A stretch of 22,558 bases of DNA from sequence record PQ585404; one strand, given 5' to 3'. Below are positions 2,284 through 18,876 of this stretch, piece after piece; position 1 is the first letter of the stretch; the number at the start of each line of letters is the position of its first letter. Origin of the DNA: Escherichia phage MirsaeidiM_Esher6. The translations under genes were made by a program, and so were the position numbers. The notes below the pieces were generated by a model that saw nothing but the letters and a program-made list of their open reading frames with translations, did no database searches and had not been told where the DNA came from.

Positions 2284-2547
2284 TTATTGAACACCATACC
2301 CGGTGTCATTATCTTCCGTAGCCGAGAGCACCTTATCGTACTCTGCGTTCAGGGACTCCATATCAGCCAGAGTCTTCTCGTCGACAGACACCTTGCTTAG
2401 CACGAAGTTGTGACGAGCCAGTAGCTTCTCAATGGCGTTGTAAAGCTGAGGTGAACGCTTAGTGTCATCCCGCAGGTCTTGCAGCATGAGTCGAGCACGT
2501 TCAGTATCTAGCATCAAGAGGAACTTCTCTAAGTCCATCTGCGTCAT
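2284..2547 (-). CDS. gp18: Terminase small subunit / DNA maturation protein A (T7 gp18-like)
   Basis: 87 aa at the T7 gene 18 position and size. ATG start overlaps the holin stop as ATGA, with SD AGGAGGAGG upstream. Confidence 0.75.
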   Translation of the reverse strand: MTQMDLEKFLLMLDTERARLMLQDLRDDTKRSPQLYNAIEKLLARHNFVLSKVSVDEKTLADMESLNAEYDKVLSATEDNDTGYGVQ

Positions 2548-2741
2548 GTTTTACCACCTCCTCCTTTAATCGTTTTGTAGACTAGCACACCAATCTGGAC
2601 AACGGTGTACGCGATAGCTGCAACGTAGAACCATTCGTTAAGTGTGAGCCCGAAGAAGAACCGACTGGCACCATCAGCCGCAGCGGTCCCGACTATAGGA
2701 GAGGCTTTAAGGACCTCATTCTTGAAGTCTAACTCAATCAT
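2544..2741 (-). CDS. gp17.5: Class II holin (T7 gp17.5-like)
   Basis: 65 aa; central ...FFFGLTLNEWFYVAAIAYTVVQIG... is nearly identical to the T7 holin core. SD GGAGG upstream of ATG. Confidence 0.88.
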   Translation of the reverse strand: MIELDFKNEVLKASPIVGTAAADGASRFFFGLTLNEWFYVAAIAYTVVQIGVLVYKTIKGGGGKT

Positions 2742-2850: not shown

Positions 2851-5800
2851 TTACTTCTGTTCAAGAGCAGAAAGTCTGGCTTCGATTCTTTCCAGTTTTC
2901 TTCTCTGATAAGCGGCTTCAGCAAAGAAAATTCCGTCAGGCCGAACACCCCACTCCTCACCCTCTTCGTGAATAACCACCTCGGTGTACACAGGTTCTTC
3001 CGTAGTAGTGACATTACCCTCCTCGTCAGTGTGTTCAATGATTTCATTGTGCGAAAATACCGTATCGGTCATCCGTGGATACTTGTCATAGCACAGAACA
3101 GCATAACGACAATTCGTACTGTTTTCATCCATCAGACCATGTGCAATGAATACATCACGAATTTGCTGAGCAATAACCCCGAAGTGAATACGAGCATCAT
3201 TGCCTTTCAGTTGAACAGCATCTAACCACTGGTACATGATGTAGTGAACGTCACCCCAGGCATCTAGGAAAGCATCATCAAAAACTACCGGCTCTGTTTT
3301 CCTCTCCCCGTTAGAAGTAACAATAGGGTTACTTCCTAGGTATGCAGTGGAGAAACGGTTGCTAGGCCCACCAAGCGCAGTGACGTTATCGTTATAAGGC
3401 TTAACATCAGCAGTCTGGAACAGGTGCTCAGCTCCGTTGTAAACTATCCGCCTTGAGTCGGTGTTATTTGCACCATAAAGCGTAATCTGTGCGCCAGAAG
3501 AAGAACTGGTACTGTCGCCTCCGCAAAATATGGTGCGCTGCCCTGCAGGGTTATCAGTCGGTATAGATTTCCCGATAAACCCATATTCACCTTCCATTAA
3601 AACTTCAGAGCGAATGTTACTACTGGTGCTGGCTCTAATGGTCACATGACCTAAACCCAAATCCCCTGTAAATTCCATTGGCGCAGGAACAGTGCGAATC
3701 CCATTCGTATCAAAAAACACGGGAACAGCTCTGTTAGGTACAGCACCATACCTGAAATCACGGGAAACATGATTGCTTGGGCCAATCTTCATTTTGTAGC
3801 AATACAAATCTGAGGGATGACCATCCGATTTGAATGGGTCCTTCGCTGAGTTATCTCCATATGTCCATGGGTTAAAATGGTCCTCTCCACCAAACATGTA
3901 GTAGATGTAATTATCCTTCACAACTACCGAACCAACACCTACACCTGAGTTAACTATTCCGCCCTGATAAATCTGGTCAGTGATGTTAACCAATTCAATA
4001 TCATCTGCATTCCAATTGTTTACATTCAAGCGTGCATAGAAGGTGCGAGGATAAGATGCCTTGTAACGATCATCTGGTGCACCTGCTTCCCATTCATTTT
4101 CTGCACGTTCTGAACCAAACATAATAAGGTCATCCCCTACTTTAGCAAAAGGTAATGTAGTATGATGAACATTATGTGGAAATCTCAGTGACTCCCAAGT
4201 CTGACCTATGTCTCTACTACGATGCAAAGAGCTACCTAGTCTATCCCCACGAGTACCACGAGTGATAAGATACAATACACCATCATAGTACTTGATGCAC
4301 GGTTCTGATGCATCTGGTTCATACTCAGCTGGTATCTGACGACGAACATAGTTAGCTGGATTGTCGAAAGCATTAGGGAAGTAGAAGAGTCCAACTTCGC
4401 GTGGGGCTACATCGCCTTGATGATAACCCATAACAAAGCCATTGTTATCAATAGTAGCAAAGCTATGCACCTCTGTTACACGAGGGATTAGACCGAGGTC
4501 TGTCTTACGCCATGGAGACTTATGGAAAGACGTACCCATGTGCCAATTCTTTCCAGCGTTATTCAAATCTGAAGTCTGCTGGTTGGGTGTAAGAACCGTG
4601 AAGTTGTCCTTATCTATTACGGTTGCAACAGTCATATCACCGGATACACCTGTTACCGCAGAATTAGAGAAGTTAACAAAATCACCCACGAATAGTCCGT
4701 GGTCTGGTACATGTATTGTTGCATATCGCTGATTTGCAGCTTTAGTGATACCACCAGTAAGATGCAGGCTACGAGACATGGGGCGATCCCACAATGCACA
4801 ATTGGTTAATTCGTTCTTGGCTAAAGTACGTGTTTCAATCATGGCAAACAGACGGTTGCGACATACACCCATGCTCATACAGTGATAGTTCACTGTAGGG
4901 TAATCTGGATGCAGATCAGTTAACCACTCTGGAGTAGACCATGTTTGACCATCATCACCAGACTTAACCCATGATACATGCAGACGACTAACACCATGAC
5001 GATCGCCACCCATGTAAGGTGCATATATCACATTATCATATACGAACGCTTTATCCTGAGGCCACGCATTGTAATAAGGGGTGTCCGTTATTTTGAATAA
5101 CTCCCCCTGAACAAATTCCTCAGAGGCATAATAAAGAGGTTGTCCGGGAATGCGCTCATAAAGGAAACGAGTGTTGATGAAGCGACTAATGTCAGGCAGG
5201 GATGTGACCTTATATGTCTTCCCATTGCCATTAATCTTTTGTCCAACCGGTATGTCGTTTAATGCGCTCGTTAACGCTGCTGTATCATCAGTGACACCAT
5301 CCCCTTTAGCACCCCAACCACGAACATCATTTTCATCAAGCCAGCGTGCTCTATGTAATTCAGGGTAGAGTATTGCCCCTTCCGGGTTTGAAATCTGACT
5401 TCTTAAAGCAGCATCACCAACACTAACCCACGCACCTAATCCAATCCCACCAGAAGTTTCAGGAGTTGAACCAGCAGGAACGTTCTTTGGAAGCGTACCA
5501 TCCCAGCGGTAATAATCACCATCCTCTTCCCATAGCAGGACCTCGCTCCATGTTGTAACGTTGTAGCCTTTCTCGAAGGAGCGACGGGTCATATAGCCAA
5601 TTAGACCAGCTTCCCTGATACTCTCAGCGATTCGGCGTGCTTCGTCCTCGCTATCCTTAGCGTTGCCAGCAGAGCTACCAGCAGCATCGGCATATTCCTT
5701 CGCTAAGTCAACCGTTTGGTCTCGACCTTCTTCTGCAATATGGATAGCCTGAAGCTCTGAATTGGTCAGGTCACTAGCTGTCAACACTGAGCCATTCCTG

Positions 5801-6045
5801 AAGTCTACCACTAAGTCAGTTCCAGTCTGACGGTGAATACGAACGATGTCGAAACCTGATTGGTCAACCAACATCTCAATCATCGTTGGATTAAGGAATC
5901 GGTAATCTCGACCAACTTCCAGTACACGGTTCAGGGTAGGGTTAGAGCTATTCACCAGCGTAACAACAACAAACGTTCTGGCTAGGTAATCGAACTCAAT
6001 CCTGTACTGAGTGTTCCCTGAAGGGAATTGTGTAATCGTGGACAT
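2851..6045 (-). CDS. gp17: Tail fiber / tailspike with endosialidase (endo-N-acetylneuraminidase) catalytic region and C-terminal intramolecular chaperone domain
   Basis: 1064 aa. The N-terminal ~150 aa (MSTITQFPSGNTQYRIEFDYLARTFVVVTLVNSSN...) is a T7 gp17-like tail-attachment domain. Length 1064 and Ser911/Lys916 (...VTS-NGERK..., by my count) match what I recall of K1F endoNF. ATG start with SD AGGAGG. Confidence 0.85.
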   Translation of the reverse strand: MSTITQFPSGNTQYRIEFDYLARTFVVVTLVNSSNPTLNRVLEVGRDYRFLNPTMIEMLVDQSGFDIVRIHRQTGTDLVVDFRNGSVLTASDLTNSELQAIHIAEEGRDQTVDLAKEYADAAGSSAGNAKDSEDEARRIAESIREAGLIGYMTRRSFEKGYNVTTWSEVLLWEEDGDYYRWDGTLPKNVPAGSTPETSGGIGLGAWVSVGDAALRSQISNPEGAILYPELHRARWLDENDVRGWGAKGDGVTDDTAALTSALNDIPVGQKINGNGKTYKVTSLPDISRFINTRFLYERIPGQPLYYASEEFVQGELFKITDTPYYNAWPQDKAFVYDNVIYAPYMGGDRHGVSRLHVSWVKSGDDGQTWSTPEWLTDLHPDYPTVNYHCMSMGVCRNRLFAMIETRTLAKNELTNCALWDRPMSRSLHLTGGITKAANQRYATIHVPDHGLFVGDFVNFSNSAVTGVSGDMTVATVIDKDNFTVLTPNQQTSDLNNAGKNWHMGTSFHKSPWRKTDLGLIPRVTEVHSFATIDNNGFVMGYHQGDVAPREVGLFYFPNAFDNPANYVRRQIPAEYEPDASEPCIKYYDGVLYLITRGTRGDRLGSSLHRSRDIGQTWESLRFPHNVHHTTLPFAKVGDDLIMFGSERAENEWEAGAPDDRYKASYPRTFYARLNVNNWNADDIELVNITDQIYQGGIVNSGVGVGSVVVKDNYIYYMFGGEDHFNPWTYGDNSAKDPFKSDGHPSDLYCYKMKIGPSNHVSRDFRYGAVPNRAVPVFFDTNGIRTVPAPMEFTGDLGLGHVTIRASTSSNIRSEVLMEGEYGFIGKSIPTDNPAGQRTIFCGGDSTSSSSGAQITLYGANNTDSRRIVYNGAEHLFQTADVKPYNDNVTALGGPSNRFSTAYLGSNPIVTSNGERKTEPVVFDDAFLDAWGDVHYIMYQWLDAVQLKGNDARIHFGVIAQQIRDVFIAHGLMDENSTNCRYAVLCYDKYPRMTDTVFSHNEIIEHTDEEGNVTTTEEPVYTEVVIHEEGEEWGVRPDGIFFAEAAYQRRKLERIEARLSALEQK

Positions 6046-6092
6046 TATGCCTCCTGTTATGAATTAAAAGGAGACCTATGGTAGCGCCTCCA

Positions 6093-6115
6093 GTTTCCTA
6101 TAGTGATAGTTTAGT
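6093..6115 (-). promoter_or_regulatory. Phage RNAP promoter upstream of gene 17 (phi17-like)
   Basis: Minus strand reads ACTAAACTATCACTATA|GGAAAC, one of five copies of the same 17-mer followed by G. Overlaps the gene 16 stop codon. Confidence 0.8.
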
Positions 6116-9100
6116 CCTTGATGTGGATGCCCTGCTCCTCAAACGTTCCAAGCAACAGCTTCTGGGTAATGGGGTCGTTCGGAACCAGTTCACGGAACGT
6201 GTTATACATCCCGGTCATGTAGTCTCGCTCGTTGACACGGGTATCAGCCTTGAGGTAGCCAGCCAAGTTGTAAGCAGAAACGCCAACGTTAGCAGCATAT
6301 CCGAAAGCTGGAACCTGCTCCAAGAAGTTACCAACAACATTCATCACAGGGTCACTTGTAGCCGCACCAAACGTGATGGCACGTTCAGGCTTCTCTGTAG
6401 GCGAACGAGGAAGGATAGACGAGCGGAGTAACTTAGTGTCCTCATACCCAGCGATGCCACCCAGAATGTTGGCGACCCCAAGAGGTCCACCCAAGTGGGA
6501 GCTACGGGATAGAGCCGCATAGCCAATCATCGTCGGGTTCAGGGCTTGCTTCAGGTACTCACGGTCACGACCGTCCTGCATAGCGTAAGCCTTGATGTGC
6601 GCCTGAGCCATGTAGTACATCCCAGCCAGACCCATAGAGATCACAGTGGACAGTGCAGCATCCATAGCTCGGTTGTTCTTGGTGGCGTTGTAGAAGGTAC
6701 GCATGGTTCGACCGTTGATAGACTTGATAACGTAGTTCTTAAACTGCAAGACAGTCTTCGCTATCGGACCATAAGCCTTGGCGTCCATGTTGCTCAGCTT
6801 GTGGGGACGGAGCAGGGTCTCATCAGCGATGGTGTCACCCATACGCCAGAGGTCCATAGCCCTTGGGTCCTGACTGAACGCCTTCTTATCCTTGATGGTG
6901 TACTTCCCGTCTGGACCACGCGTCACTGACTCACGGATGAGGGACTTAATGCCCTTCCACTGCTCGTCAGAGATACCAGCGGTCTTCAGCCAGCGGTCAT
7001 CGAACTTACGCTTACTACCAGTCAGGCTATGCTCCACGATGTCAGACAGGAAGCCTTGACGTCCAGCATCTAACAGGTAGTTGGTCGTACCGTTGAGGAC
7101 TTTAGTGAACGGAGAGCGTACTGCAAGTTCGCCAGTGTAATACTTGGCAGTCCCCAGAGCTGTAGCTGTACCACGACCGAGGTCACTGTAAGATCGCAGA
7201 CGGTCAATGACATCCTGTTTAGACGGACGGATTGAGTCATCCAGTTCCTTACCGAAGATAACATTGTGCAGGTCCTTAATCTCTGAGGCCCCAACCTTCT
7301 TGTTACGGAAGGCTAGGTCACGGAAAATTGGGACTCCATGCAGCATTGCACGAACGTTGCCACGAGCCAGCATACCACCAATCTCCGTTAAGTTCTGAAC
7401 ACCCATGTAGGCATTCTTAGCGAAGAACGATAGGTCTGTCATTGTGCGCATCACGGTAGCGAAGGCTGCATCATCAGCACCATCACGTCGAGCACGACCA
7501 GTTAGAATCTTCAAGGTGTCACGTAAGGTAGATACTTCACCTTTCAACTTACCGTCATCCCCAGCCTTGTTCATCATGGTCTCAACCAAGTCCTTCATGT
7601 CCTTCGTGGTTTTGCCTGTACCAGCCATGATAGCAATATCGCCATTAATTCGACGGTTGTAGGCCGGGACAATCTTGTCCATGTCCCACTCACGCAGGTT
7701 GTTGACACTGAAGGTCTGACCATTAGGTAGGACGATTGACATATCGCTATCGAACAGGTTACGAGCCTCAAGGAAGCTGTTGTTCTCCAGACCCACCAGA
7801 CCATTGATGTTCTCTTCCATTACGGATGAACGCTCGAACTGCTCGGTGTGAGAGATACCATAAGCCTTATCGTTGGCGTACTTATCGACCGCAGCCGCAA
7901 GTCCTTCTGGAGTCAACGTAGGATCAGCCTCTAAGAGTGCCTCGTCCACACGTTTCTTGACCTCAGGTCGAGACGCATAGCTGGTCAACCATGACTTCTT
8001 GATGGCCTCCTGTAGTGCCTCTGGACTCCCAAGCTCCTTGATGTATAGCTCCTTCATCTGGTTGCTATACACATGCGGGACGTAGGTTCCCTTGAAGCGG
8101 CTGCCCGGAAAGATAGACTGAGCGTCTGGCCGACCAAACATAGCTGGGTTCTCCATCATCTCACGCTTGGCGTCAAACTGGTTCTTCAGTAGGTCATAGA
8201 CTTTAAGTTCTCCCGGAGTAAGTTCAGCCTTCAGGTTTCCGCTGCCATCTTCGATAGCCATAGACACGCGCTGGTAGATGTCCTGACGGAATGCTCCAGA
8301 GTCTCGCCAGAATGCTGTCTGGAAGTACGGGTCCTTCAGTGCCTCAGTAACCGCATCATCGATGTCGTTGTAGAACCGATGGTCCACAGCACGCAGTCTC
8401 TCGAATACGTCTGACGCAGTGGTCCCGATTTTACCTGAGGCCCCTGACTGCATACCAGTCGGTGAACGCACTAAGTCAGCAGCTACTCCACGAATCTCAG
8501 GGTTCTCAGACCGAAGCAGCTTCAGGCCAATCTCGGTAAGTCCACCAAGGTTCACACCAGCAGCGGCACGTTCTGGCTCAATCACTTCGTCAAAGACCTT
8601 ACGTGTCTTAGGGTTCAGAGGGTTCTCACCAATCAGGATTGAACCATCTTCCAGTCGTACACTACCCTGCTCATTCGGAACGTCAGCGAACTTAACTCCT
8701 TGATGACTAAAGGTCTGCTCACCTTCCTGAATAGGGAGACGAGACAGGTCCTGACCATCAATGTTACGAGCGGTCTCACGAGCTTCCAGACGTGTAGCTG
8801 GGCCAGCGAACTCATTAGTGTTGCGACCTAAGGCTCTGCCTAACCCATCAGCGATAGCAGTCATACCACCACCGAAGAGAGCACCACCAAGGATAGCTTC
8901 AGCCACATGAGTATCGCCACCAGCCACTGAGGTACGGGCCATCTCGGACACACCAGCAAGTGCTCCAGATTGAGCAGCCACGGTGAACATCTTGTTGACC
9001 AGCTTCGCACCTTTGCCAACCTGTCCAGCGATAGGAACGTAGGTCAGCGGGTCTACACCAGCACCAATCACACCAGCTGCTAACTGAGCACCAGTCCCAG

Positions 9101-10007
9101 CCTTGGCCTTCTCTTGGTCCAACTTCTGGTTCTCAAGCGCCAAGTTAATAAGCTCGGTCAGGTTCTGAGGAGAGCCACCAGTAATGACACCGTAATACTG
9201 AGGGAGAACTCCAGCGTTACGAATCTGGTCCAGCTCCTCACGAGACCACTTATGGTTGTTCCAGCGGGTAGGGTTGAACACATCGCCAATGACATCAAGT
9301 GAGTCCTCGGTCTGACCAGCGCGGATAGCCACGCCGACCATAGAGTTCTTCACTTCAGCTTCTGTAGCCGAGCCGAAACCGAACCACGTAGAGCGGCCCT
9401 CTCGTTCCTGCATGGTCTCGCCAGTAGACTTATAGAACATCTCACTGAACGATTCGTTGGGAGCTTCAGGTGCTTGACCCTCAATGTTTAGACCAGCAGC
9501 GGTCGGAAGGTTCTCACCCAGAGCTACTTTAGGTTTAGCCTTGAGTCCTTCCGTGAGTGCGTCAAATACGTTAGCGCTTACTGGTGGAGTCTTTGGGGTT
9601 ATGCCTCCCGCACCACTTAAGGCACGAGAGACGCCAGTCTTGTAGACCTCATGGTCATACCGGGAACCAGTCTCGTGGTAGCCGATAGCCTCAGACAGAG
9701 AGGCGAGGACATCAGGGTTCGTCAAGTCGATACTTTGGGTCGCTGGAATGCCAGTAGCAGCCACAACCGAGTCTATGTAAGACTGAGTGTCGTTCTCGCT
9801 GGGGGGCGCCCATCGGTTGATAATCTTCTCGATTGAGTCATAGCCTTGGCGACCGTAGCTTTGAAGGTTTTTCGCTAAGGCTCGGACCCCAGATTCAGGA
9901 CTGTCGAAGATGACGAATGCACCATCGTCGCCTATAGCACCTTCCCACTGGTCTTTGGACTTACGGAGGTTACCGGGGTTTGCGTTCCTTACACCACGTG
10001 TTGCCAT
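6111..10007 (-). CDS. gp16: Internal virion (core/ejection) protein D, T7 gp16-like
   Basis: 1298 aa; from about residue 130 onward it aligns by eye with T7 gp16 (e.g. GGSPQNLTELINLA, GKTTKDMKD, FDSDMSIVLPNGQTFSVNNLREWDM). ATG with SD AAGGAG. The N-terminal ~130 aa does not resemble the T7 SLT domain. Confidence 0.88.
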   Translation of the reverse strand: MATRGVRNANPGNLRKSKDQWEGAIGDDGAFVIFDSPESGVRALAKNLQSYGRQGYDSIEKIINRWAPPSENDTQSYIDSVVAATGIPATQSIDLTNPDVLASLSEAIGYHETGSRYDHEVYKTGVSRALSGAGGITPKTPPVSANVFDALTEGLKAKPKVALGENLPTAAGLNIEGQAPEAPNESFSEMFYKSTGETMQEREGRSTWFGFGSATEAEVKNSMVGVAIRAGQTEDSLDVIGDVFNPTRWNNHKWSREELDQIRNAGVLPQYYGVITGGSPQNLTELINLALENQKLDQEKAKAGTGAQLAAGVIGAGVDPLTYVPIAGQVGKGAKLVNKMFTVAAQSGALAGVSEMARTSVAGGDTHVAEAILGGALFGGGMTAIADGLGRALGRNTNEFAGPATRLEARETARNIDGQDLSRLPIQEGEQTFSHQGVKFADVPNEQGSVRLEDGSILIGENPLNPKTRKVFDEVIEPERAAAGVNLGGLTEIGLKLLRSENPEIRGVAADLVRSPTGMQSGASGKIGTTASDVFERLRAVDHRFYNDIDDAVTEALKDPYFQTAFWRDSGAFRQDIYQRVSMAIEDGSGNLKAELTPGELKVYDLLKNQFDAKREMMENPAMFGRPDAQSIFPGSRFKGTYVPHVYSNQMKELYIKELGSPEALQEAIKKSWLTSYASRPEVKKRVDEALLEADPTLTPEGLAAAVDKYANDKAYGISHTEQFERSSVMEENINGLVGLENNSFLEARNLFDSDMSIVLPNGQTFSVNNLREWDMDKIVPAYNRRINGDIAIMAGTGKTTKDMKDLVETMMNKAGDDGKLKGEVSTLRDTLKILTGRARRDGADDAAFATVMRTMTDLSFFAKNAYMGVQNLTEIGGMLARGNVRAMLHGVPIFRDLAFRNKKVGASEIKDLHNVIFGKELDDSIRPSKQDVIDRLRSYSDLGRGTATALGTAKYYTGELAVRSPFTKVLNGTTNYLLDAGRQGFLSDIVEHSLTGSKRKFDDRWLKTAGISDEQWKGIKSLIRESVTRGPDGKYTIKDKKAFSQDPRAMDLWRMGDTIADETLLRPHKLSNMDAKAYGPIAKTVLQFKNYVIKSINGRTMRTFYNATKNNRAMDAALSTVISMGLAGMYYMAQAHIKAYAMQDGRDREYLKQALNPTMIGYAALSRSSHLGGPLGVANILGGIAGYEDTKLLRSSILPRSPTEKPERAITFGAATSDPVMNVVGNFLEQVPAFGYAANVGVSAYNLAGYLKADTRVNERDYMTGMYNTFRELVPNDPITQKLLLGTFEEQGIHIKD

Positions 10008-10012
10008 TATTA

Positions 10013-12295
10013 TTACTCCTTACTGATTAAGGTGTTTGCGATACCCTCCAGTGAGACGTCATTGTACATCCCACCGCGCTTCTCGATGTTGGCCTCTCGG
10101 TCAGCTCGACGTTTGTCACCAGCAGCTTTAGTCCCGACGATACGCGCTCGCTTGTTAGCGTCACGTTCTGCCTGAGCATATGCGGCATCTTGTGCCTTCT
10201 GCTGTTGTTCGCGGTAGAGTTTACCTACAAGTTCTTTATCGTAGCGAATACGAATAGTCCCTGTAGCGTCTTGGAGGAAGATAGAGCCGTTCTGTTCAAC
10301 AACGGACAACTGAGAGTTAACTACCCAAGGGTTGGCCTTAATGAGCTGCTTACGAGCGGTGTCTATAATGTCTCGACCAACCTGCCACGACTCTGGGTTA
10401 TCCCCGACCATAAGCTGGTGCTTGGACGCCATGCCGATGGACTTACCGTCAGAACCTTCAGACTGGAACGTTACGGTGTTCTCATTCAGCCAGCGTTGAG
10501 TCTGCTGAGTTGCAGCGTCAGCGTTACCTGTACGATAGTACCATGAGTCCCAGACCTTACGAGCACTTGAGTCTAGAGACGTAGGAAGACGCGAAAGGTC
10601 CTTATTCCGAGAGTCGTTCTTCAACTCCTGCCACGCCCTGTCTGACTCCATGCGCATCTCACGGCTTTGACTTGCAGCTTGCTTATCAGCTTCAATCATC
10701 GTCTGAGGGTCCAGACCCATCTTATCCATCTGGTCGAACGTAGAGAACAACTGAGCTTGGTCAGGATACAGAGCAGCGAAACTTGAAGGGTCCTGAGTGT
10801 AGGCACGACGAAGAGATTCGAAGCGTTGCATCTTGTCTGGGTCGTACTGCCCACGGATGACCGCAGCTTGCCACTCACCAGCAGCGTCCTGAGTAAGCGT
10901 TTGGAAGGCATTACGGAACGGACCGTTGTTAGTGTCAGCTCTTAATAATGCAACCTTCTGTGCGTCCTTAGCAGCCTCAGGGATGTCCATCTGGTCAATC
11001 TGCTGTAGCTTAGCAGACGCATAGTTGTTCATGTCTGAACGCTTGAACTCTCCTGTGGCTACAGAGACCGGAAGGTCCTCATAGTTGGTGGACACGTTGT
11101 CTCCAGCCAGACGTCGCTGATACACTTGGTCAATGACCAGTTGCTTGTTCTGGGTCTGGATTAACTTCGTGTTCTCCTTCGCCTGTTCAGCAGACTTACG
11201 CTTTACCGCTTCCAGTAAGCTGGCTTCGGCATTAATAAGCATCTGACGCTGAGGCGTGAGTTCTTCACCCGGTTGAAGCAGGTTGTTCTGCTCCTTGAGT
11301 TTTTGAATCTGGGCCAGACCGATGGTTGGGTCATCCTGAAGAATCGCAGACTGAACGCCTAACGACAAGTCTTCCTGATACTTAGCCACCAGCTTGTACT
11401 CAGTTCCTTGTGCCTCAACAATAGCAGCGTTGAAGACATCAGGTCCTACAATCTCTTCGACTGTAGCATCCACGCCGTTAAGGGTGATTCGCTCGCCTCG
11501 TACTTGCTGTAGGAAGTTTGAGCCGCCTGACTTCTGGATTGCGTCACGGACCGTCTGGGTAACGACCTCCCGCGCTCGCTGGTCCGAGGGGATAGCAGCA
11601 GTAGTCAGTCCATCACGAAGGTAGGCCATGAATGTCTTGCCAGACTCAGGTGAACGCATCAGGTCGCCATCGTTCAGGAATGAGTTCATCTCAATACGAG
11701 TGTTCAACATTGCTGTCTCTTCAGACTGCTTGCTGAAATACTTATTGAAAGACCCATAGATAGCGATGTTGCGGTCTGTGATGTTATCGTTGAACCCACG
11801 CTGGAAGAACTCGTCTGTAGGGTTAATACCCGCCTCTTCAGCATAGGACTTAGCGGCGTCCTGAAGTCGCTGGTGGCGATACTCTTCCATGTCCTGACGT
11901 GTACGGAACTCACCGTTCTGAATCTTAACGTTAATCTCGTCGTCTACAGCAAAGGCAGCATTACGACCAGTCTTGACTCGAAGTGCTTCCATAGCGTAAG
12001 GGTCGTCCTGATACAGCAGTGTGCCGTTCTGGATAGCCTCACGTCTTTGTTGAGGTGTCAGCTTACGGATAATCTCGTTAGACCGCTCGTCGGCCCGTGT
12101 CTTCTCCTCGTCCTTGAACTGCTTGTACAATCCAGTCCCAGACTCAACGAAGTTGGTTAACGCCCGAGCCAGACCTGAGTCACCAGTTGGAGCCTGAACG
12201 CTGGCTGCTTGATAGTTGACGGCGATAGTTTTACCCGGCGCTCTGCCACGACCCATAGTCCGATTAGCCAGAGCTGATTCAATATTACTAGCCAT
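10013..12295 (-). CDS. gp15: Internal virion (core) protein C, T7 gp15-like
   Basis: 760 aa (T7 gp15 is 747 aa) at the syntenic position. ATG with SD GAGGAGG. Confidence 0.82.
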   Translation of the reverse strand: MASNIESALANRTMGRGRAPGKTIAVNYQAASVQAPTGDSGLARALTNFVESGTGLYKQFKDEEKTRADERSNEIIRKLTPQQRREAIQNGTLLYQDDPYAMEALRVKTGRNAAFAVDDEINVKIQNGEFRTRQDMEEYRHQRLQDAAKSYAEEAGINPTDEFFQRGFNDNITDRNIAIYGSFNKYFSKQSEETAMLNTRIEMNSFLNDGDLMRSPESGKTFMAYLRDGLTTAAIPSDQRAREVVTQTVRDAIQKSGGSNFLQQVRGERITLNGVDATVEEIVGPDVFNAAIVEAQGTEYKLVAKYQEDLSLGVQSAILQDDPTIGLAQIQKLKEQNNLLQPGEELTPQRQMLINAEASLLEAVKRKSAEQAKENTKLIQTQNKQLVIDQVYQRRLAGDNVSTNYEDLPVSVATGEFKRSDMNNYASAKLQQIDQMDIPEAAKDAQKVALLRADTNNGPFRNAFQTLTQDAAGEWQAAVIRGQYDPDKMQRFESLRRAYTQDPSSFAALYPDQAQLFSTFDQMDKMGLDPQTMIEADKQAASQSREMRMESDRAWQELKNDSRNKDLSRLPTSLDSSARKVWDSWYYRTGNADAATQQTQRWLNENTVTFQSEGSDGKSIGMASKHQLMVGDNPESWQVGRDIIDTARKQLIKANPWVVNSQLSVVEQNGSIFLQDATGTIRIRYDKELVGKLYREQQQKAQDAAYAQAERDANKRARIVGTKAAGDKRRADREANIEKRGGMYNDVSLEGIANTLISKE

Positions 12296-12306: not shown

Positions 12307-12873
12307 TTAGCTATGACCTGTAGGTGTGCCTTTAGCAGCACTAATCGGTGCAGCACCATCACCAGAGCTGGACGCTCCAGAGATTGACTTACCAGCAGCG
12401 TACCCCTGCATCCCGGCGCTTGCAACATTAAGTGCATGAGCCAGTGGGCTGGTCTTGATGATTTTACCTTGACCGTGGATAGCAGACTTGGTGTTCTCAA
12501 TGTTGGCGATACGGTTCCCGAAGATAGCCGCATAGTCACGGTTGTAGCTTTCGGTAATCCCTGCTCGCTCCTTGACTGTATCTCCTGCGACCTGACGTTC
12601 AATCCTGTCCATAGAGTTACCTTCCAGACCGGACTCAGCCACCGCAGCTCGGACCATACCCTGATTGCGGATACCGTTGAGCGTGGTCTCTGTCAGTTCA
12701 GCCATCTGCTGCTCCTTCAGGTCTCGCTCCTGCATCTTCAGGTTGGCATCAGAGTAATTCATTTGTTTAATCATCTCCTGAGCCTGACGGTTCTGAGCGT
12801 CAATTGCTGCACCTTCGGCCTTGGCTTGTTGAGACGCGGACATAGTGGCCCCTGCTACAGCCATAACGCCCAT
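12307..12873 (-). CDS. gp14: Internal virion protein B, T7 gp14-like
   Basis: 188 aa, Ala/Gln-rich; MSASQQAKAEGAAIDAQNRQAQEMIKQ parallels the T7 gp14 N-terminus. ATG at 12873 has no obvious SD, so the start is slightly uncertain. Confidence 0.78.
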   Translation of the reverse strand: MGVMAVAGATMSASQQAKAEGAAIDAQNRQAQEMIKQMNYSDANLKMQERDLKEQQMAELTETTLNGIRNQGMVRAAVAESGLEGNSMDRIERQVAGDTVKERAGITESYNRDYAAIFGNRIANIENTKSAIHGQGKIIKTSPLAHALNVASAGMQGYAAGKSISGASSSGDGAAPISAAKGTPTGHS

Positions 12874-12900
12874 GCCGATAGAAATTGGTTCGCAAATTTT

Positions 12901-12975
12901 CTAATCCCCCTTCCGGCTATCAGCCAGATACTTAGCAGCCTTCTCAATCTTGCAGACTGTGCAGACCTTCGTCAT
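12901..12975 (-). CDS. Small ORF (24 aa, CxxC) translationally coupled to gene 13
   Basis: Absent from the ORF track (below its size cutoff). ATG overlaps the gene 13 TGA as ATGA, with SD AAGGAGG 5 nt upstream. Translation MTKVCTVCKIEKAAKYLADSRKGD, stop TAG. Confidence 0.4.
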   Translation of the reverse strand: MTKVCTVCKIEKAAKYLADSRKGD

Positions 12976-13430
12976 ACGTCCTCCTTGGAGATTGTGAATA
13001 ATTGAAAACGCTCACCAGTGACAGGACTCTCGGTCCAATCATCATGGAATTTAGCGCCAAGCAACTTCAAGAATTTAATGTGAGACTTATTGTCTGACCA
13101 CACGTAGTTCCAGATGGTCCCGTATTGGTCTAACATTAAGTCCCTGTACTCAGAGATACGCTTTATGAACTCCCGCTTCTCTTTAGGTCTCAGCTTATAG
13201 ACAAGACCTGAAGTCAAGAACCATACGTTATCCCCTTGGTTTCCACCATATGCAAACACTTCGCCTACACCGTTCGTTAAAACCACAGATGACGGAGATA
13301 AATGCTTAAGCAGTCTTTCAGAGAGACCCACGGTTGACCCGTAGTTTGCTTTGCATTCATTAACATCATCTGCCGAAAGATGCCGCATAAAGTAGTGGAC
13401 ATCTGGTTCCGTAGCCTTGCGAATATACAT
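12972..13430 (-). CDS. gp13: Internal virion protein A, T7 gp13-like
   Basis: 152 aa directly downstream of a phage promoter, between genes 12 and 14 as in T7. ATG with SD AGGAG. Confidence 0.72.
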   Translation of the reverse strand: MYIRKATEPDVHYFMRHLSADDVNECKANYGSTVGLSERLLKHLSPSSVVLTNGVGEVFAYGGNQGDNVWFLTSGLVYKLRPKEKREFIKRISEYRDLMLDQYGTIWNYVWSDNKSHIKFLKLLGAKFHDDWTESPVTGERFQLFTISKEDV

Positions 13431-13506: not shown

Positions 13507-15864
13507 TTAGACGGAACGAGCTTTCTTAGCGTATGACGCCTCCCAGCCACATCCAACGATTGACACTGGGGTAGGATAGTCGGACTCTAAGGTTAGACTC
13601 GTGGTTAATGCGTTACCATTCATAGCGAAGCGATACTGCCCGTCACCAATGTTAGTAGTCCCTATGGTTTGCTGACCAAGGGTGTACCCATTAAAGGTGT
13701 TAACGAACTCTCGCTCACCGTTTCTGACAATGAGTCTCAGAGCGCCAGTGTCCTTGTAGTTGACCCAAGCCCGACGAAGCTGTAGACGACCAGTGTCTTC
13801 AGACTGAGTGCCTCTATCATCTTCAATCTTAATCAGGAACCGTGAGAACTTGTAGGACATCATATAGGACCGTCCGATGAACACTGTACGTCCTGACCAA
13901 TCGCCGTTGAGGGTAATCACAGTAGAGATACTGGTTAATTCCCCAAGGTCCAAATAAGCACCCTGACTGTCAATCAGATAGTACCGACCGGGAGACGGAG
14001 CGCTACCGCCATAAGCAGCACCAATGTCAACCGTAGTCTTATATGTGTCAGCATTAAACGAGCCAATTGGGATGACCATAGACACCTTGGAGTCAACGTG
14101 GAGTCTATACGGCTCTGACGGAAAGTCAGTTGCCTCCTTGATGAACTTAAGGTGCTCAATGTCTACCCCTCCTTGATGCTGACGAACGATGAACATGGTA
14201 GAGCCAATAGAAGCAGACGCCAGAATCTTATCATCTTTAGGGAACTCCCAGTGTGACCAAGAGGCTTGAAGCTGTACGCCGTCCTTAAACAAGAACTTGT
14301 AGATGTAGATACGGTTGTATGCACCTGTAGAGTTGACGCAGATGTAGTTCTCAGTCCCTGTACCTTGAATATCAAACACCCCGTTAGGGATGTAGGACAA
14401 TACGTGACCGGTTGTATCATCAGCATCCTTCACATCAGACACATCAGCTACAGCGAAGTATCGCTTAATGCTGGTGAATGACCCACGAGGAGCTGAGAAG
14501 AAGACTGAGCGTCCTACAGCGAACGGTCTGGCATTGTCGCCTAAGGCAAACTCTGAGCCTACATCAAGCTGGATAGACTTCGAGGTAAGGACCCCAGAGC
14601 TTGTCATCACGAACTGAACTTCATCCGACCAAAGTAGTAGCTGCTCGCTAAACGGAACGGCATACTTAAGGATTGAGATTCGAGGGTGGCTTACAGCTAC
14701 ATCAATAGGGTCATCATCACTCAGTGTCGCCACACTCTTAGGGAAGAACGCAAAGTAGCTGGCTGAACGGCTCATGATTACGTTCTCGCCTGACAAGAAC
14801 CCAAGCCTATTCCTGTAGAAGAACACATCGTTAATCGTAGCATCCACGAAGCTAGGCATAGGGTTTGTGTCATCATTCCCAGCACCACGCTTAGACCAGT
14901 CCAGAGCCTTGAACTCAAAGGAGCCATCAGTTTGTCGTACCAGAGCGTGTGGCATTGTGGTGTTATTGAACCCAGTGACAACTCCAGGCTCCACTGTCTC
15001 CTTCCACGTCTTAGTGTTGGAGTCATACATCACGTAGTATTCGTCGGCGCTACTGTTTGTCTCACCTTGAATCTTAATGATATACCCATTAGGAGCGGCA
15101 AGAGGTAGTTTAGAGATTGTCTGCACAGTATCTAGGACTGGGCTTATTAGCTGGTTAGCGTAGCCATCCTCCGTCTCTACTGAGTTAATATCGGTCCCAG
15201 AAGGAGCTGTGATTAGCAGGAATCCAGACCCAAGGTCAAACGTGAAGGTAGGGTAGGCAGTGACAAGAAGGTCTCTCAGAGCTGCACCAATGGCTTGAGC
15301 GTCCACCTTAGGCGGGTCATTCTCGGCATCGTTACCTGCTGGTAGCTTATGCGAGACCTTAACGCCACCGTTGATTCCCACCTTAAGGGTTCGACCATAC
15401 TGTCCACCACGCAGGTTAATTAAAGCTCGTGCTTTGCGGTTATAACCAGAGTGTGACTTCTCGCTTCCACCTTTGACGACAACCTTACGGTTAACGACGA
15501 ACGTATAGTCTGCCACGGTAACGACACGGATGTCATCTCGTGGGTTTGAGGACTTAACGTAGTCTACCTCACCTGACACTGAGTATTGGTTACCACTCAA
15601 GTCAACTACCTGAATGTCGGACCCATTGAACACGATGTAATACTGCTCATGCTCGTCACGGTTAATCAGGTGGAACTTAGGGTTGCTCCCAACGTCGATG
15701 TTAAGACGTCGCTTGAAGACTGTAGGTGGACGCTTCTGGAGTCCATCACTCTCGGATGACCAGCAGTTAACCTGTGCCTCTCCTTGGTCTGAGAACCTCA
15801 GGATGTCAGGCTGTTGGCTAATGCCACCCTTAAGATTTTTTATGCTTTGCGTAATAAGAGGCAT
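13507..15864 (-). CDS. gp12: Tail tubular protein B (T7 gp12-like)
   Basis: 785 aa (T7 gp12 is 794 aa) at the syntenic position after gene 11. ATG with SD GGGAGGG; start overlaps the gene 11 stop. Confidence 0.85.
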   Translation of the reverse strand: MPLITQSIKNLKGGISQQPDILRFSDQGEAQVNCWSSESDGLQKRPPTVFKRRLNIDVGSNPKFHLINRDEHEQYYIVFNGSDIQVVDLSGNQYSVSGEVDYVKSSNPRDDIRVVTVADYTFVVNRKVVVKGGSEKSHSGYNRKARALINLRGGQYGRTLKVGINGGVKVSHKLPAGNDAENDPPKVDAQAIGAALRDLLVTAYPTFTFDLGSGFLLITAPSGTDINSVETEDGYANQLISPVLDTVQTISKLPLAAPNGYIIKIQGETNSSADEYYVMYDSNTKTWKETVEPGVVTGFNNTTMPHALVRQTDGSFEFKALDWSKRGAGNDDTNPMPSFVDATINDVFFYRNRLGFLSGENVIMSRSASYFAFFPKSVATLSDDDPIDVAVSHPRISILKYAVPFSEQLLLWSDEVQFVMTSSGVLTSKSIQLDVGSEFALGDNARPFAVGRSVFFSAPRGSFTSIKRYFAVADVSDVKDADDTTGHVLSYIPNGVFDIQGTGTENYICVNSTGAYNRIYIYKFLFKDGVQLQASWSHWEFPKDDKILASASIGSTMFIVRQHQGGVDIEHLKFIKEATDFPSEPYRLHVDSKVSMVIPIGSFNADTYKTTVDIGAAYGGSAPSPGRYYLIDSQGAYLDLGELTSISTVITLNGDWSGRTVFIGRSYMMSYKFSRFLIKIEDDRGTQSEDTGRLQLRRAWVNYKDTGALRLIVRNGEREFVNTFNGYTLGQQTIGTTNIGDGQYRFAMNGNALTTSLTLESDYPTPVSIVGCGWEASYAKKARSV

Positions 15865-16430
15865 TAGTCCCTCCCGATGTCAGACATCATGTTGTAGCGA
15901 CCAGTGTCCATCTCATACTCCATAACCTGCTGATAGAGTTCTGCTTCCTGCTCACGAAGGTATAGCTCTGACTCCGGGCTACCGAAGAACTTAGCGTTGA
16001 ACTCACGGCTAGCTTTAGTGACGATGTAGTCCCTGAAGACCACAGGCATCTCGGAGAATGGCTTCATCTCCACAAGCTCTACCGTGATAGGGTCGGTGAA
16101 AGTGGTTGACTGAGTGGACAGGTCGTACAGGTATCCACCCATGTTGCTGTAGTAGCTGGTGGCCCCAGCGGTCATTACACGAAGGTATGACGGCAAGAAT
16201 CGAATCCTATTGTCTTGGACATCAGGTGTCAGGACAGCAGCTTCATTGATGTTAAAGTTCCAGCCTTTAGCTTGGACCTGACGATTAACACGATGCAGGA
16301 TACGTTGAGCGTTCGAGACGTCAGCGTTACCTTCGTCAAGCTGTAGGACTGCCGGTTCACCGATAGCAGCTAACATATCGTTGATGGCGTCTAAGTCATC
16401 GTTAGCATTCAGTGGAATGTATTGAGCCAT
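15864..16430 (-). CDS. gp11: Tail tubular protein A (T7 gp11-like)
   Basis: 188 aa; ...AINDMLAAIGEP...AQRILHRVNRQVQAKGWNFN...VTKASREFNAKFFGSPE... matches T7 gp11 motifs. ATG with SD AAGGAG. Confidence 0.88.
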   Translation of the reverse strand: MAQYIPLNANDDLDAINDMLAAIGEPAVLQLDEGNADVSNAQRILHRVNRQVQAKGWNFNINEAAVLTPDVQDNRIRFLPSYLRVMTAGATSYYSNMGGYLYDLSTQSTTFTDPITVELVEMKPFSEMPVVFRDYIVTKASREFNAKFFGSPESELYLREQEAELYQQVMEYEMDTGRYNMMSDIGRD

Positions 16431-16588: not shown

Positions 16589-17763
16589 TTAGTTGTTGGA
16601 CTCAGCCAGTTTAGCGGCCCTGTTCGCAGCACGAGTACGCGCAGCTTTCTGTTGAGGAGTTAGAGTCTCCTCTTCAGGTGCAGCCGCTACTGTAGCGACG
16701 TTAGGTTGGCTAAAGGTGCTTACGCCGCTGGGCTGAAAACCAGTGCGCCAGCCGCTTCAGGACGCAGACCACCATGACCCATAGCGTATTTACCAACAAT
16801 CAGGTCACCCTGAGCATCTACGTCACGGTCACGTTCCAGCGCCAAGTCACGCAGCTTCACAGTGCCTACAGCAGAACGGTGAGAGAACAGGCCCACAACG
16901 TTGTCCAGAGCAACTTTAACATCACCAGCAGCAGTAGCTGGGAAGGCGTGCTTCTGACCAGTCGCAATAGTGATACCATCGGCACCACGAGTTTCACCAG
17001 CACCACCCTGAGTCAAGTGTGGAACTTCAACAACCACGAAGCCCATTACGTTACGGATGTTACCAGTCTCTGGGTCAATCAGCGCAGCATAGTTAGCAGC
17101 GTTCGGCATCAGAGCCGCGAGGATTGCAGAGTAGTTGTCAGGCGTGGTGTAGAAGTAACGGTCGCCAGCAGGAACGTAGTTGGAGGTCAGCTTCGCACGA
17201 GCAATGGTCAATTGACCAATGATTGCTTCACCCAGTTTAGCCGGGGTGTTGAGGTCAGCTTTCTTACCAACTCCCAGTACGGACGCAGTGCCCAGACCAG
17301 CGATGTTCTCGTTGGATGCATCCGGGAGGTTACACAGGATCGCCATTTCAGCCAGCACCGCACCATCAGCAGCGATAGCCAGAGCTTCGCCCAACTGGTT
17401 GGAATACTCACCAGCCACGTCGTAGTGGTTCATCGCGTCTTCAATGTCGAAAATCATCACATCGGCAGTCAGCAGACCATCAATGGTAATCACTTTCTCG
17501 GTATGCTTGATACCTTTACGCTTATCGGACAGTCGCTCACCAGGAGCCAGATACACACCAGAGGTGCGACCCATGACCGGGAACTGAGCAGACTTACCGT
17601 TCTGAATGGTACGGACAATATGCTTGTCAGCAGTTACAGAGCGGCGAGTGAATGCGGTCAGGACTTCACCAGCAAATACCTTCAGGAACAACGCTAGAGC
17701 GTCGGAACTGGATTTGCCTTTACCTTGGTCTGTACCAATTTTCTGACCCGGAACGTTTGCCAT
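16589..17763 (-). CDS. gp10B: Minor capsid protein 10B, predicted product of a -1 ribosomal frameshift near the end of 10A
   Basis: Slippery G GTT TTC (plus-strand 16735..16741, complement) lies 4 codons before the 10A stop. The -1 frame stays open for 49 codons (GFQPSGVSTFSQPNVATVAAAPEEETLTPQQKAARTRAANRAAKLAESNN) and stops at TAA 16589..16591, immediately before the terminator hairpin. Confidence 0.6.
16720..17763 (-). CDS. gp10A: Major capsid protein 10A (T7 gp10A-like)
   Basis: 347 aa with extensive identity to T7 gp10A (e.g. LALFLKVF.GEVLTAF, KHTEKVITIDGLLTADV, AILAALMPNAANYAALIDPE, RNVMGF.VVEVPHLT.GGAG, KYAMGHGGLRPEAAG). ATG with SD. Confidence 0.95.
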   Translation of the reverse strand: MANVPGQKIGTDQGKGKSSSDALALFLKVFAGEVLTAFTRRSVTADKHIVRTIQNGKSAQFPVMGRTSGVYLAPGERLSDKRKGIKHTEKVITIDGLLTADVMIFDIEDAMNHYDVAGEYSNQLGEALAIAADGAVLAEMAILCNLPDASNENIAGLGTASVLGVGKKADLNTPAKLGEAIIGQLTIARAKLTSNYVPAGDRYFYTTPDNYSAILAALMPNAANYAALIDPETGNIRNVMGFVVVEVPHLTQGGAGETRGADGITIATGQKHAFPATAAGDVKVALDNVVGLFSHRSAVGTVKLRDLALERDRDVDAQGDLIVGKYAMGHGGLRPEAAGALVFSPAA

Positions 17764-18853: not shown

Positions 18854-18876
18854 TGTTCCTATAGTGATAGTTTAGG
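18854..18876 (-). promoter_or_regulatory. Phage RNAP promoter upstream of gene 9 (phi9-like)
   Basis: Minus strand CCTAAACTATCACTATA|GGAACA. Overlaps the gene 8 stop. Confidence 0.78.

What the first reader, a model, noticed from the sequence alone, without database searches (positions are those of the whole stretch)
9600..10007. gp16 N-terminal domain does not resemble the T7 lytic transglycosylase domain
Most of gp16 aligns with T7 gp16, but the first ~130 residues (MATRGVRNANPGNLRKSKDQWEGAIGDDGAFVIFDSPESGVRALAKNLQSYGRQGYDSIEKIINRWAPP...) lack the SLT-type catalytic motif I expect from T7 (TESRF... and GLMQ). The peptidoglycan-breaching domain of the ejection protein may have been replaced by a different module.
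Basis: partly seen in the sequence, partly recalled or inferred. Interest (0 to 1): 0.5.

Follow-up and report, generated by a model that had tools for sequence, protein, structure and literature searches.

The report
Swapped cell-wall cutter on phage gp16
In this K1F-like relative of phage T7, the first ~130 residues of the DNA-ejection protein gp16 are a small helical cell-wall hydrolase of the already characterised phage Enc34 endolysin family, not T7's lytic transglycosylase. This is a real but ordinary module swap that many database records mislabel.

Summary
The window is the late-gene region of a Kayfunavirus (K1F-like T7 relative), read on the minus strand. gp16 is 6111..10007 (-), 1298 aa. 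Residues 120-1298 align with T7 gp16 at 53% identity. Residues 1-~130 have no similarity to T7's N-terminal SLT domain by BLASTP, Pfam or profile-profile comparison (hhalign probability 0.9%).

The family is large (~19,400 clusters at 50% identity). It occurs as stand-alone endolysins and inside ejection proteins of other podoviruses.

Compared with K1F, exactly this domain is a mosaic patch: dS 1.96 against 0.115 in the core, with dN/dS 0.075. It is therefore an exchangeable module under purifying selection.

Verdict: a real module replacement and a new member of a known kind. Enzymatic activity and bond specificity are inferred, not shown. Interest is modest.

The parts
6111..10007 (-). gene 16: internal virion protein D / ejectosome protein, 1298 aa
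   Evidence: ORF list and translation. phrog_342 E 0. 53% identity to T7 gp16 over residues 120-1298. Near-identical full-length chain in PDB 9vvp_L 'Gp29', and T7 gp16 chains 7eyb/7k5c/6yt5. Lies between gp15 (10013..12295, phrog_1339) and the tail fibre (2851..6045).
9618..10007 (-). N-terminal Enc34-type (PHA02564) muralytic domain, residues 1-~130
9672..9674 (-). codon of Glu112, predicted catalytic glutamate (equivalent to Enc34 Glu131)
   Evidence: Residue mapping from the HMMER alignment. Invariant in 36- and 8-sequence alignments. Codon gag read directly from the sequence.
9777..9779 (-). codon of Tyr77 (equivalent to Enc34 Tyr95)
   Evidence: Invariant.
9810..9812 (-). codon of Trp66 (equivalent to Enc34 Trp79)
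   Evidence: In the alignments the position holds Trp in most sequences and always an aromatic residue (Trp, Tyr or Phe).
9591..9608 (-). GGITPK, residues 134-139: the junction where homology with T7-type gp16 begins, at the start of a flexible linker
   Evidence: Four-way alignment of window, K1F, T7 and Sibilus. pLDDT falls to 58 in residues 131-140.
9561..10010 (-). mosaic patch: the only part of genes 15-16 that is strongly diverged from phage K1F
   Evidence: Nucleotide identity is 64-83% here, against 92-100% (mostly 96-100%) in gene 15 and 94-99% just downstream. dS is 1.96 against 0.115 in the core; dN/dS is 0.075.
10016..10021 (-). Shine-Dalgarno AAGGAG of gene 16, inside the end of gene 15
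   Evidence: Read from the sequence. The same TAAGGAGTAata..ATG arrangement is tabulated for the gene 16 equivalents of the Citrobacter Kayfunavirus phages in PMC4925675.

Best explanation
The first ~130 residues of this Kayfunavirus gp16 are an Enc34-type (PHA02564) peptidoglycan glycosidase domain. It occupies the position of the SLT lytic-transglycosylase domain of T7-type gp16. It is joined through a flexible linker, starting at GGITPK, to an otherwise T7-like ejectosome protein. By analogy with T7 gp16 (inference), the protein is packaged in the capsid core and ejected through the tail at infection. In the periplasm the N-domain then opens a local hole in the murein so that the gp14/15/16 conduit can reach the inner membrane. 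Catalysis would use Glu112 as the general acid, with Tyr77 and Trp66 positioning the glycan. The bond cleaved is most probably GlcNAc-beta-1,4-MurNAc (N-acetylglucosaminidase, as reported for M4Lys and proposed for Enc34), not the MurNAc-GlcNAc bond cut by T7's transglycosylase. The domain behaves as an exchangeable cassette: it replaced SLT in the Kayfunavirus lineage, and its alleles are still being shuffled among members of the genus. Shown here: homology, predicted fold, residue conservation, the sharp junction, the mosaic patch and purifying selection. Inferred: muralytic activity of this protein, bond specificity, and a role at entry.
Against: No enzymatic test exists for any gp16-borne copy of this domain. 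Enc34's Glu131 was assigned by superposition, and the text read reports no mutagenesis. The authors obtained no substrate complex. M4Lys data also suggested an endopeptidase activity, so bond specificity in the family is unsettled. The fold evidence rests on a predicted model. The near-identical PDB chain 9vvp_L was not returned by Foldseek, so I cannot say whether the N-domain is resolved experimentally. From my own knowledge, T7's transglycosylase activity is dispensable under many growth conditions (Moak & Molineux 2000), so a role at entry may be conditional.
Confidence: 0.85

Rival explanations
1. The domain is an Enc34-type fold but cleaves the same MurNAc-GlcNAc bond as T7 gp16, acting as a muramidase or lytic transglycosylase. 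The swap would then change the scaffold but not the chemistry.
For: The Enc34 paper finds the catalytic Glu superimposable on that of the GH23 enzymes phiKZ gp144 and MltC as well as on GH73. Bond specificity was not measured for Enc34. GenBank records call these proteins 'lytic exotransglycosylase', although that label is inherited from T7.
Confidence: 0.2
2. The N-terminus is a T7-type SLT domain that has diverged beyond recognition, rather than a replacement.
For: According to PMC8943055, Enc34-type, GH73 and GH23 enzymes may share very remote ancestry.
Against: hhalign of the two family profiles gives 0.86% probability. The break is abrupt, next to a region of 53% identity. The core helices are in permuted order relative to GH23. 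The domain is 35-54% identical to domains in unrelated phages (epsilon15, Chivirus endolysins, Pseudomonas siphophages). The closest non-Kayfunavirus core (Sibilus, 66% identity) has a clear SLT domain.
Confidence: 0.02
3. The domain is catalytically inactive in gp16 and serves as a murein-binding or assembly/structural module of the internal core.
For: No activity data exist for gp16-borne copies. From my own knowledge, T7's enzymatic activity is conditionally dispensable.
Against: The proposed catalytic Glu and the Tyr are invariant, and the Trp position is always aromatic. dN/dS is 0.075. 35% identity and a 1.6 A rmsd link the model to an enzyme with demonstrated lytic activity.
Confidence: 0.06
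4. The domain functions mainly at the end of infection, as an auxiliary endolysin, rather than at entry.
For: Many family members are bona fide endolysins, in Chivirus, Nonagvirus and Seuratvirus. Stand-alone homologues carry N-terminal hydrophobic anchors.
Against: Here it is fused to a 1170-residue ejectosome protein with no signal sequence. The protein is packaged in virions: IVP-D was detected by mass spectrometry in the Kayfunaviruses SH3 and SH4 (PMC4925675), and 9vvp_L is a solved chain. The window also encodes a holin and an Rz-like spanin. From my own knowledge, T7-like phages use the gp3.5 amidase as endolysin.
Confidence: 0.04

Closest known systems
Hafnia phage Enc34 ORF39 endolysin catalytic domain (PDB 7Q47; NCBI CDD family PHA02564 'V virion protein'), and its homologue Salmonella phage BSPM4 M4Lys
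   Different: Enc34 and M4Lys are ~26 kDa lysis-cassette proteins with a C-terminal transmembrane domain, and they act at lysis. Here the domain is the N-terminal head of a 141-kDa virion ejection protein and lacks that transmembrane tail. The alpha1-alpha2 loop is shorter and is predicted as a small beta-hairpin (residues 24-34).
T7 gp16 (internal virion protein D; PDB 7EYB, 7K5C, 6YT5)
   Same: Residues 120-1298 are homologous (53% identity). Same gene order, 15-16-17. Same overall architecture: N-terminal murein-cleaving domain, linker, ejectosome body.
   Different: The N-terminal enzyme is SLT/GH23 in T7 (PF01464, catalytic Glu37 in WTESRF). Here it is an unrelated-in-sequence Enc34-type domain, with a probable difference in the bond cleaved.
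Other podovirus ejection proteins carrying the same domain: Burkholderia phage Bp-AMP3 IVP-D (1665 aa, N-terminal copy), Providencia phage PSTRCR_120 IVP-D, Salmonella phage epsilon15 gp15 and Klebsiella phage BUCT711 (internal copy, about residues 246-365)
   Same: The same muralytic domain (37-50% identity in the alignment; 42% for PSTRCR_120 by Foldseek) is grafted onto internal virion proteins. This fits the general rule of Hardies et al. (PMC4819975) that internal virion proteins variably host tail-lysozyme domains.
   Different: The host protein (IVP-C or IVP-D homologue) and the position in the chain differ. The carrier proteins are unrelated or only distantly related.
GH73 N-acetylglucosaminidases (FlgJ 5DN5, C. 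difficile Ecd09610 8YXK, T. maritima TM0633 4QDN)
   Different: No sequence or Pfam match. No beta-lobe. The core helices are in permuted order.

Membership tests
Enc34-type / PHA02564 muralytic domain | Significant sequence similarity to the Enc34 ORF39 catalytic domain | tested here: met
   phmmer E 1.1e-11 for residues 3-120 against 7q47_A. A family profile finds 19,446 clusters at E <= 1e-3.
Enc34-type / PHA02564 muralytic domain | Compact helical fold of 7Q47 (helices alpha2-alpha5 forming the groove) | tested here: met
Enc34-type / PHA02564 muralytic domain | Conserved Trp79 / Tyr95 / Glu131 signature | tested here: met
   W66, Y77 and E112 align to these residues. Y77 and E112 are invariant, and the position of W66 is always aromatic, in 36 + 8 sequences.
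Enc34-type / PHA02564 muralytic domain | Peptidoglycan-degrading activity and its bond specificity | not testable with these tools
   Activity is shown only for Enc34 ORF39deltaC and M4LysdeltaTMD (PMC8943055, PMC7143992).
SLT / GH23 lytic transglycosylase (Pfam PF01464), as in T7 gp16 | Match to the SLT profile | tested here: not met
   No Pfam hit for the domain or the whole protein, even at E <= 1. Positive controls: T7 at 2.6e-31 and Sibilus at 6.8e-25. None of the 36 family members hits SLT or Glucosaminidase.
SLT / GH23 lytic transglycosylase (Pfam PF01464), as in T7 gp16 | Catalytic E-S motif followed by the GLMQ-type and AYNxG-type motifs | tested here: not met
   The invariant columns of the T7-type alignment (E37, S38, G52, Q55, Y108...) have no counterpart. 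hhalign of the two profiles gives probability 0.86%.
SLT / GH23 lytic transglycosylase (Pfam PF01464), as in T7 gp16 | GH23 fold | tested here: not met
T7-type gp16 / internal virion protein D (ejectosome component) | Homology of the ~1170-residue body, and position between genes 15 and 17 | tested here: met
   53% identity over 1190 columns. phrog_342 E 0. The neighbours are gp15 (phrog_1339) and the tail fibre.
T7-type gp16 / internal virion protein D (ejectosome component) | Packaged in the capsid core and ejected to form the trans-envelope channel | not testable with these tools
   Indirect only. IVP-D was detected by mass spectrometry in virions of the Kayfunaviruses SH3 and SH4 (PMC4925675). 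A near-identical chain is present in PDB 9vvp.
GH73 N-acetylglucosaminidase | Sequence-profile membership, and an alpha+beta lysozyme-like fold with a beta-lobe | tested here: not met

The most novel reading that the evidence does not exclude
Kayfunavirus-type phages breach the murein with an N-acetylglucosaminidase rather than a lytic transglycosylase. On this reading, the continuing exchange of N-domain alleles (dS about 2 against 0.1 in the flanking DNA) is adaptive. It would let the ejectosome cope with host-specific murein chemistry, or evade periplasmic inhibitors of lysozymes and transglycosylases. The muralytic head of gp16 would then be a second, hitherto unnoticed host-range or condition-range determinant alongside the tail fibre.
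Probability: 0.12. Interest if true: 0.55.

Novelty: new member of a known kind. Interest (0 to 1): 0.3.

Why it matters
There are three practical points.

1. Annotation. Public Kayfunavirus gp16 records are variously labelled 'peptidoglycan lytic exotransglycosylase', 'transglycosylase' or 'hypothetical protein', by transfer from T7. A 2025 review reported that in silico tools found no domain in these 1295-aa proteins (PMC12031403). The correct assignment is an Enc34-type (PHA02564) muralytic domain, probably a glucosaminidase.

2. Missing models. The family is large (~19,400 clusters at 50% identity) yet has no Pfam or NCBIfam model in the copies searched, so it is systematically missed.

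3. Comparative biology. K1F-like phages are being developed for therapy against K1 E. coli. T7 and K1F gp16 form a natural pair for asking whether the chemistry of the murein cut matters for DNA ejection.

None of this overturns current understanding. Swapping of lysozyme domains on internal virion proteins is an established theme (PMC4819975).

Tried and rejected
- Pfam and NCBIfam scans of the domain, the whole protein and 36 family members gave nothing meaningful. The only hits were chance matches such as HCNGP at E 0.063 and Peptidase_C39 at E 0.0026 in 2 members.
- A profile-profile comparison with a 7-sequence SLT alignment showed no relationship.
- The word-indexed homologue search with residues 1-120 returned only 37 short stand-alone metagenomic proteins and, oddly, none of the long gp16 proteins. 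These were good enough for the structure-prediction alignment, but not for judging distribution. Distribution was taken from tblastn against phage genomes and from the exhaustive representative search.
- Foldseek against the PDB did not return 9vvp_L, although it is about 82% identical in the N-domain. Either that entry is newer than the fold library, or the N-domain is not modelled. This could not be resolved.
- Literature. The K1F genome paper (PMC1317022) is not held, so I could not check whether its authors had already remarked on the missing transglycosylase motif. I have a vague, unverified recollection that they did. No paper for PDB 9vvp was found. Searches for K1F with gp16, transglycosylase or muralytic gave only reviews that list T7, T3 and SP6.
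- The idea that the divergence of the N-domain from K1F reflects relaxed or accelerated protein evolution was rejected. Synonymous divergence is 17-fold higher than in the core, and dN/dS is low. That pattern means a different allele was brought in by recombination.
- Two first attempts failed for technical reasons: one script because a locus file was stored under another name, and one query because of a frame error. Both were repeated correctly.

Full report
**What is in the window.** The 22.6-kb window is the late (structural and lysis) region of a K1F-like T7 relative (genus Kayfunavirus, Autographiviridae). All genes lie on the minus strand. The whole window is 98.0% identical to Escherichia phage MirsaeidiM_Esher7 and 95-96% identical to other K1F-like coliphages. 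PHROG scans identify the following:
- portal (18872..20440)
- major capsid protein (16720..17763)
- tail tube proteins (15864..16430 and 13507..15864)
- internal virion proteins gp13, gp14 and gp15 (12972..13430, 12307..12873, 10013..12295)
- holin, small terminase subunit and Rz-like spanin (2544..2741, 2284..2547, 1733..2182)

The 1064-aa tail fibre (2851..6045) is the K1F endosialidase (PDB 3GVL/1V0E, E = 0).

**Checking the observation.** An AAGGAG ribosome-binding site precedes the ATG. BLASTP against T7 gp16, fetched from NC_001604, aligns residues 120-1298 with T7 residues 144-1315 at 53% identity. The first ~120 residues find nothing in T7's first 160 (best E 0.33). T7's N-terminus is a textbook SLT domain (Pfam PF01464, E 2.6e-31). 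The window's N-terminus hits no Pfam or NCBIfam model.

**What the domain is.** It is not an orphan.
- PHROG profiles labelled 'endolysin' (phrog_873, E 4e-49), 'tail injection transglycosylase', 'head protein' and 'tape measure' all match residues 2-130, at internal positions of those much longer families.
- Against PDB sequences, two matches stand out. One is a near-identical full-length chain, 9vvp_L 'Gp29'. [quoted passage not shown]
- I aligned the domain with 35 homologues and predicted its structure. The model has mean pLDDT 93.4 and pTM 0.87, and is helical apart from a small hairpin at residues 24-34.
- Foldseek against the PDB finds only 7Q47 (E 2e-9, TMq 0.83).
- A profile-profile comparison of the N-domain family with a 7-sequence alignment of T7-type SLT domains gives 0.86% probability.

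**What is known about this family.** The Enc34 paper (PMC8943055) reports the following.
- The domain (NCBI CDD family PHA02564, 'V virion protein') lyses outer-membrane-permeabilised E. coli, P. aeruginosa and Hafnia.
- Glu131, Trp79 and Tyr95 superimpose on the catalytic and substrate-positioning residues of those enzymes.
- The authors conclude that it is most likely a beta-N-acetylglucosaminidase.

The homologue M4Lys gave muropeptide products lacking a GlcNAc residue (PMC7143992). Some ambiguity remains, because an additional endopeptidase activity was also suggested.

Using the HMMER alignment (PDB chain numbering is +1 relative to the paper), Enc34 Trp79/Tyr95/Glu131 correspond to W66/Y77/E112 of the window protein. 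Y77 and E112 are invariant, and the position of W66 is always aromatic, both in the 36-sequence alignment and in an alignment with K1F, Bp-AMP3, epsilon15 and BUCT711.

**Distribution.**
- tblastn of the domain against 50,697 phage records finds 806 records. Of these, 223 are at >=60% identity; the ones listed are gp16 of K1F-like phages of Escherichia, Salmonella, Enterobacter, Citrobacter and Cronobacter.
- The other 583 are at lower identity, in very different contexts. They include 'head proteins' of epsilon15 and phiV10, virion proteins of JBD30-like Pseudomonas phages (~37 kb genomes), endolysins such as that of Salmonella phage SE1 (Nonagvirus) and of several ~58-60 kb Salmonella, Escherichia and Klebsiella phages, small (10-14 kb) Vibrio phage records and a 6.2-kb record named 'bajarodmic virus'.
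- In epsilon15 gp15 and in the Uetakevirus BUCT711 the domain sits at about residues 246-365 of an ~840-aa internal protein.
- In the Okabevirinae phage Bp-AMP3 it sits at the N-terminus of a 1665-aa IVP-D homologue. BFVD also shows it in the 1292-aa IVP-D of Providencia phage PSTRCR_120.
- An exhaustive HMM search of 1.84 billion cluster representatives finds 19,446 clusters at E <= 1e-3 (13,733 at 1e-10). Among the 150 best, these are stand-alone proteins of about 134-250 aa and N-terminal, internal or C-terminal domains of proteins of up to about 1270 aa.
- Several stand-alone members in the alignment have N-terminal hydrophobic stretches.

**Was it a replacement?** A conserved core segment of gp16 (residues 481-760) finds 1281 phage records, 195 of them at >=80% identity. 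T7's SLT head finds 1227 records. Every non-Kayfunavirus Studiervirinae gp16 I inspected carries SLT: T7, Ningirsuvirus Sibilus (whose core is the closest outside the genus, at 66%), Berlinvirus, Przondovirus K11 and Ghunavirus. By parsimony the Enc34-type head is the derived state in the Kayfunavirus lineage; this is an inference. The junction is sharp. Homology with T7 and Sibilus begins at a shared GGI(T/S)PK motif (window residues 134-139), which opens a low-confidence, Pro/Ala-rich linker.

**The module is still mobile.** The window was compared with K1F itself (locus L002) in 90-nt bins.
- Gene 15 is 92-100% identical (mostly 96-100%).
- Identity drops to 64-83% exactly over 10010..9561, which is the N-domain.
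- It returns to 94-99% immediately downstream.
- Nei-Gojobori estimates give dS 1.96, dN 0.146 and dN/dS 0.075 for codons 1-130. For codons 441-1040 they give dS 0.115 and dN 0.003.

A 17-fold excess of synonymous divergence confined to the domain indicates a different, older allele brought in by recombination, not relaxed constraint. The low dN/dS shows that the domain is under purifying selection. The window's allele is rare: 16 records at >=90% identity against 199 at 80-90%.

**Mechanism.** The following steps are inferred. As in T7, whose gp14/15/16 ejectosome structures are the PDB entries returned, gp16 would be packaged in the capsid core and ejected through the tail. It would then assemble with gp15 into the periplasmic conduit, with the N-terminal enzyme cutting the murein locally. 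Here the enzyme would use Glu112 as the general acid and probably hydrolyse the GlcNAc-MurNAc bond.

Three statements rest on my own knowledge rather than on tool output: that ejection proteins must pass the portal-tail channel at least partly unfolded; that T7's transglycosylase is needed only under conditions of highly cross-linked murein (Moak & Molineux 2000); and that T7-like phages use the gp3.5 amidase for lysis.

**Comparison, novelty and verdict.** The domain passes every membership test I could run for the Enc34/PHA02564 family, and fails every test for SLT/GH23. The carrier protein is a bona fide T7-type gp16.

The general phenomenon is already described: internal virion proteins variably host 'tail lysozyme' domains (PMC4819975). 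The specific assignment of K1F-type gp16 heads to the Enc34 family was not found in the searchable literature. A 2025 review states that in silico tools found no domain in these proteins (PMC12031403), and GenBank labels are mostly inherited from T7.

I rate it a new member of a known kind. Interest is modest (0.3). The value lies in re-annotation, in flagging a large family without a Pfam or NCBIfam model, and in a clean natural experiment (T7 against K1F) on whether the chemistry of the murein cut matters for ejection.

Noticed in passing
window 8661..9110, 6411..6860 and 12801..13070: Besides the N-domain patch, gene 16 has two more segments markedly more diverged from K1F than their surroundings: about residues 300-450 (78-88% nt identity) and about residues 1050-1200 (87-90%). 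The gp13/gp14 junction also has a short stretch that is almost unalignable (13% in one 90-nt bin). These suggest further mosaic exchange within the internal-core genes.
   Followed up: no
window 2851..6045 (-): The 1064-aa tail fibre is the K1F endosialidase (endoNF; PDB 3GVL/1V0E at E 0; C-terminal chaperone domain 3GW6). The phage is therefore predicted to be specific for the K1 polysialic-acid capsule. PDB 9vvr, 'Tail spike protein' (843 aa), numbered next to 9vvp, shares only the N-terminal 264 residues.
   Followed up: partly
window 9588..10007 (-) and its family: This muralytic family has about 19,400 clusters at 50% identity but no model in the Pfam-A (2025) or NCBIfam (2026) copies searched. 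Domain-based annotation pipelines therefore miss it.
   Followed up: partly
public records matched by window 6111..10007: The annotation of this gene is inconsistent. Labels include 'peptidoglycan lytic exotransglycosylase', 'peptidoglycan transglycosylase', 'hypothetical protein', and 'similar to tail spike protein' (SHAK7854). The closest genome (PQ593108.1, Esher7) has no feature at all over gene 16. A 92.8%-identical genome is deposited as 'Enterococcus phage EFA-1' with host Enterococcus faecalis, which looks like a host mis-assignment.
   Followed up: no
relatives of window 6046..6110 (gene 16 / gene 17 intergenic region): Several close relatives (Pipis, EPr2, TM1, EFA-1, BUCT-3589) have an HNH homing endonuclease annotated under or next to the gene 16 match. 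In the window, genes 16 and 17 are separated by only 65 nt, so no such insert is present.
   Followed up: no
P0038 (762 aa) and P0039 (1259 aa): The two best-scoring representatives carry the domain in several copies: 4 matched stretches in a 762-aa protein and 2 in a 1259-aa protein. This would be a tandemly repeated muralytic domain, an architecture not described for this family.
   Followed up: no
alignment A1: Many stand-alone homologues (130-205 aa, from metagenomes) have an N-terminal hydrophobic segment before the domain. [quoted passage not shown]
   Followed up: no
PDB 9vvp_L versus window 6111..10007: The solved chain 'Gp29' (1295 aa) is nearly identical to the window's gp16 in the aligned stretch printed (residues 140-950). 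Like K1F, it carries the other N-domain allele, with many more substitutions and a 3-residue gap in the first 140 residues. Foldseek did not return it for the N-domain model. Either the entry post-dates the fold library or the N-domain is not modelled.
   Followed up: partly
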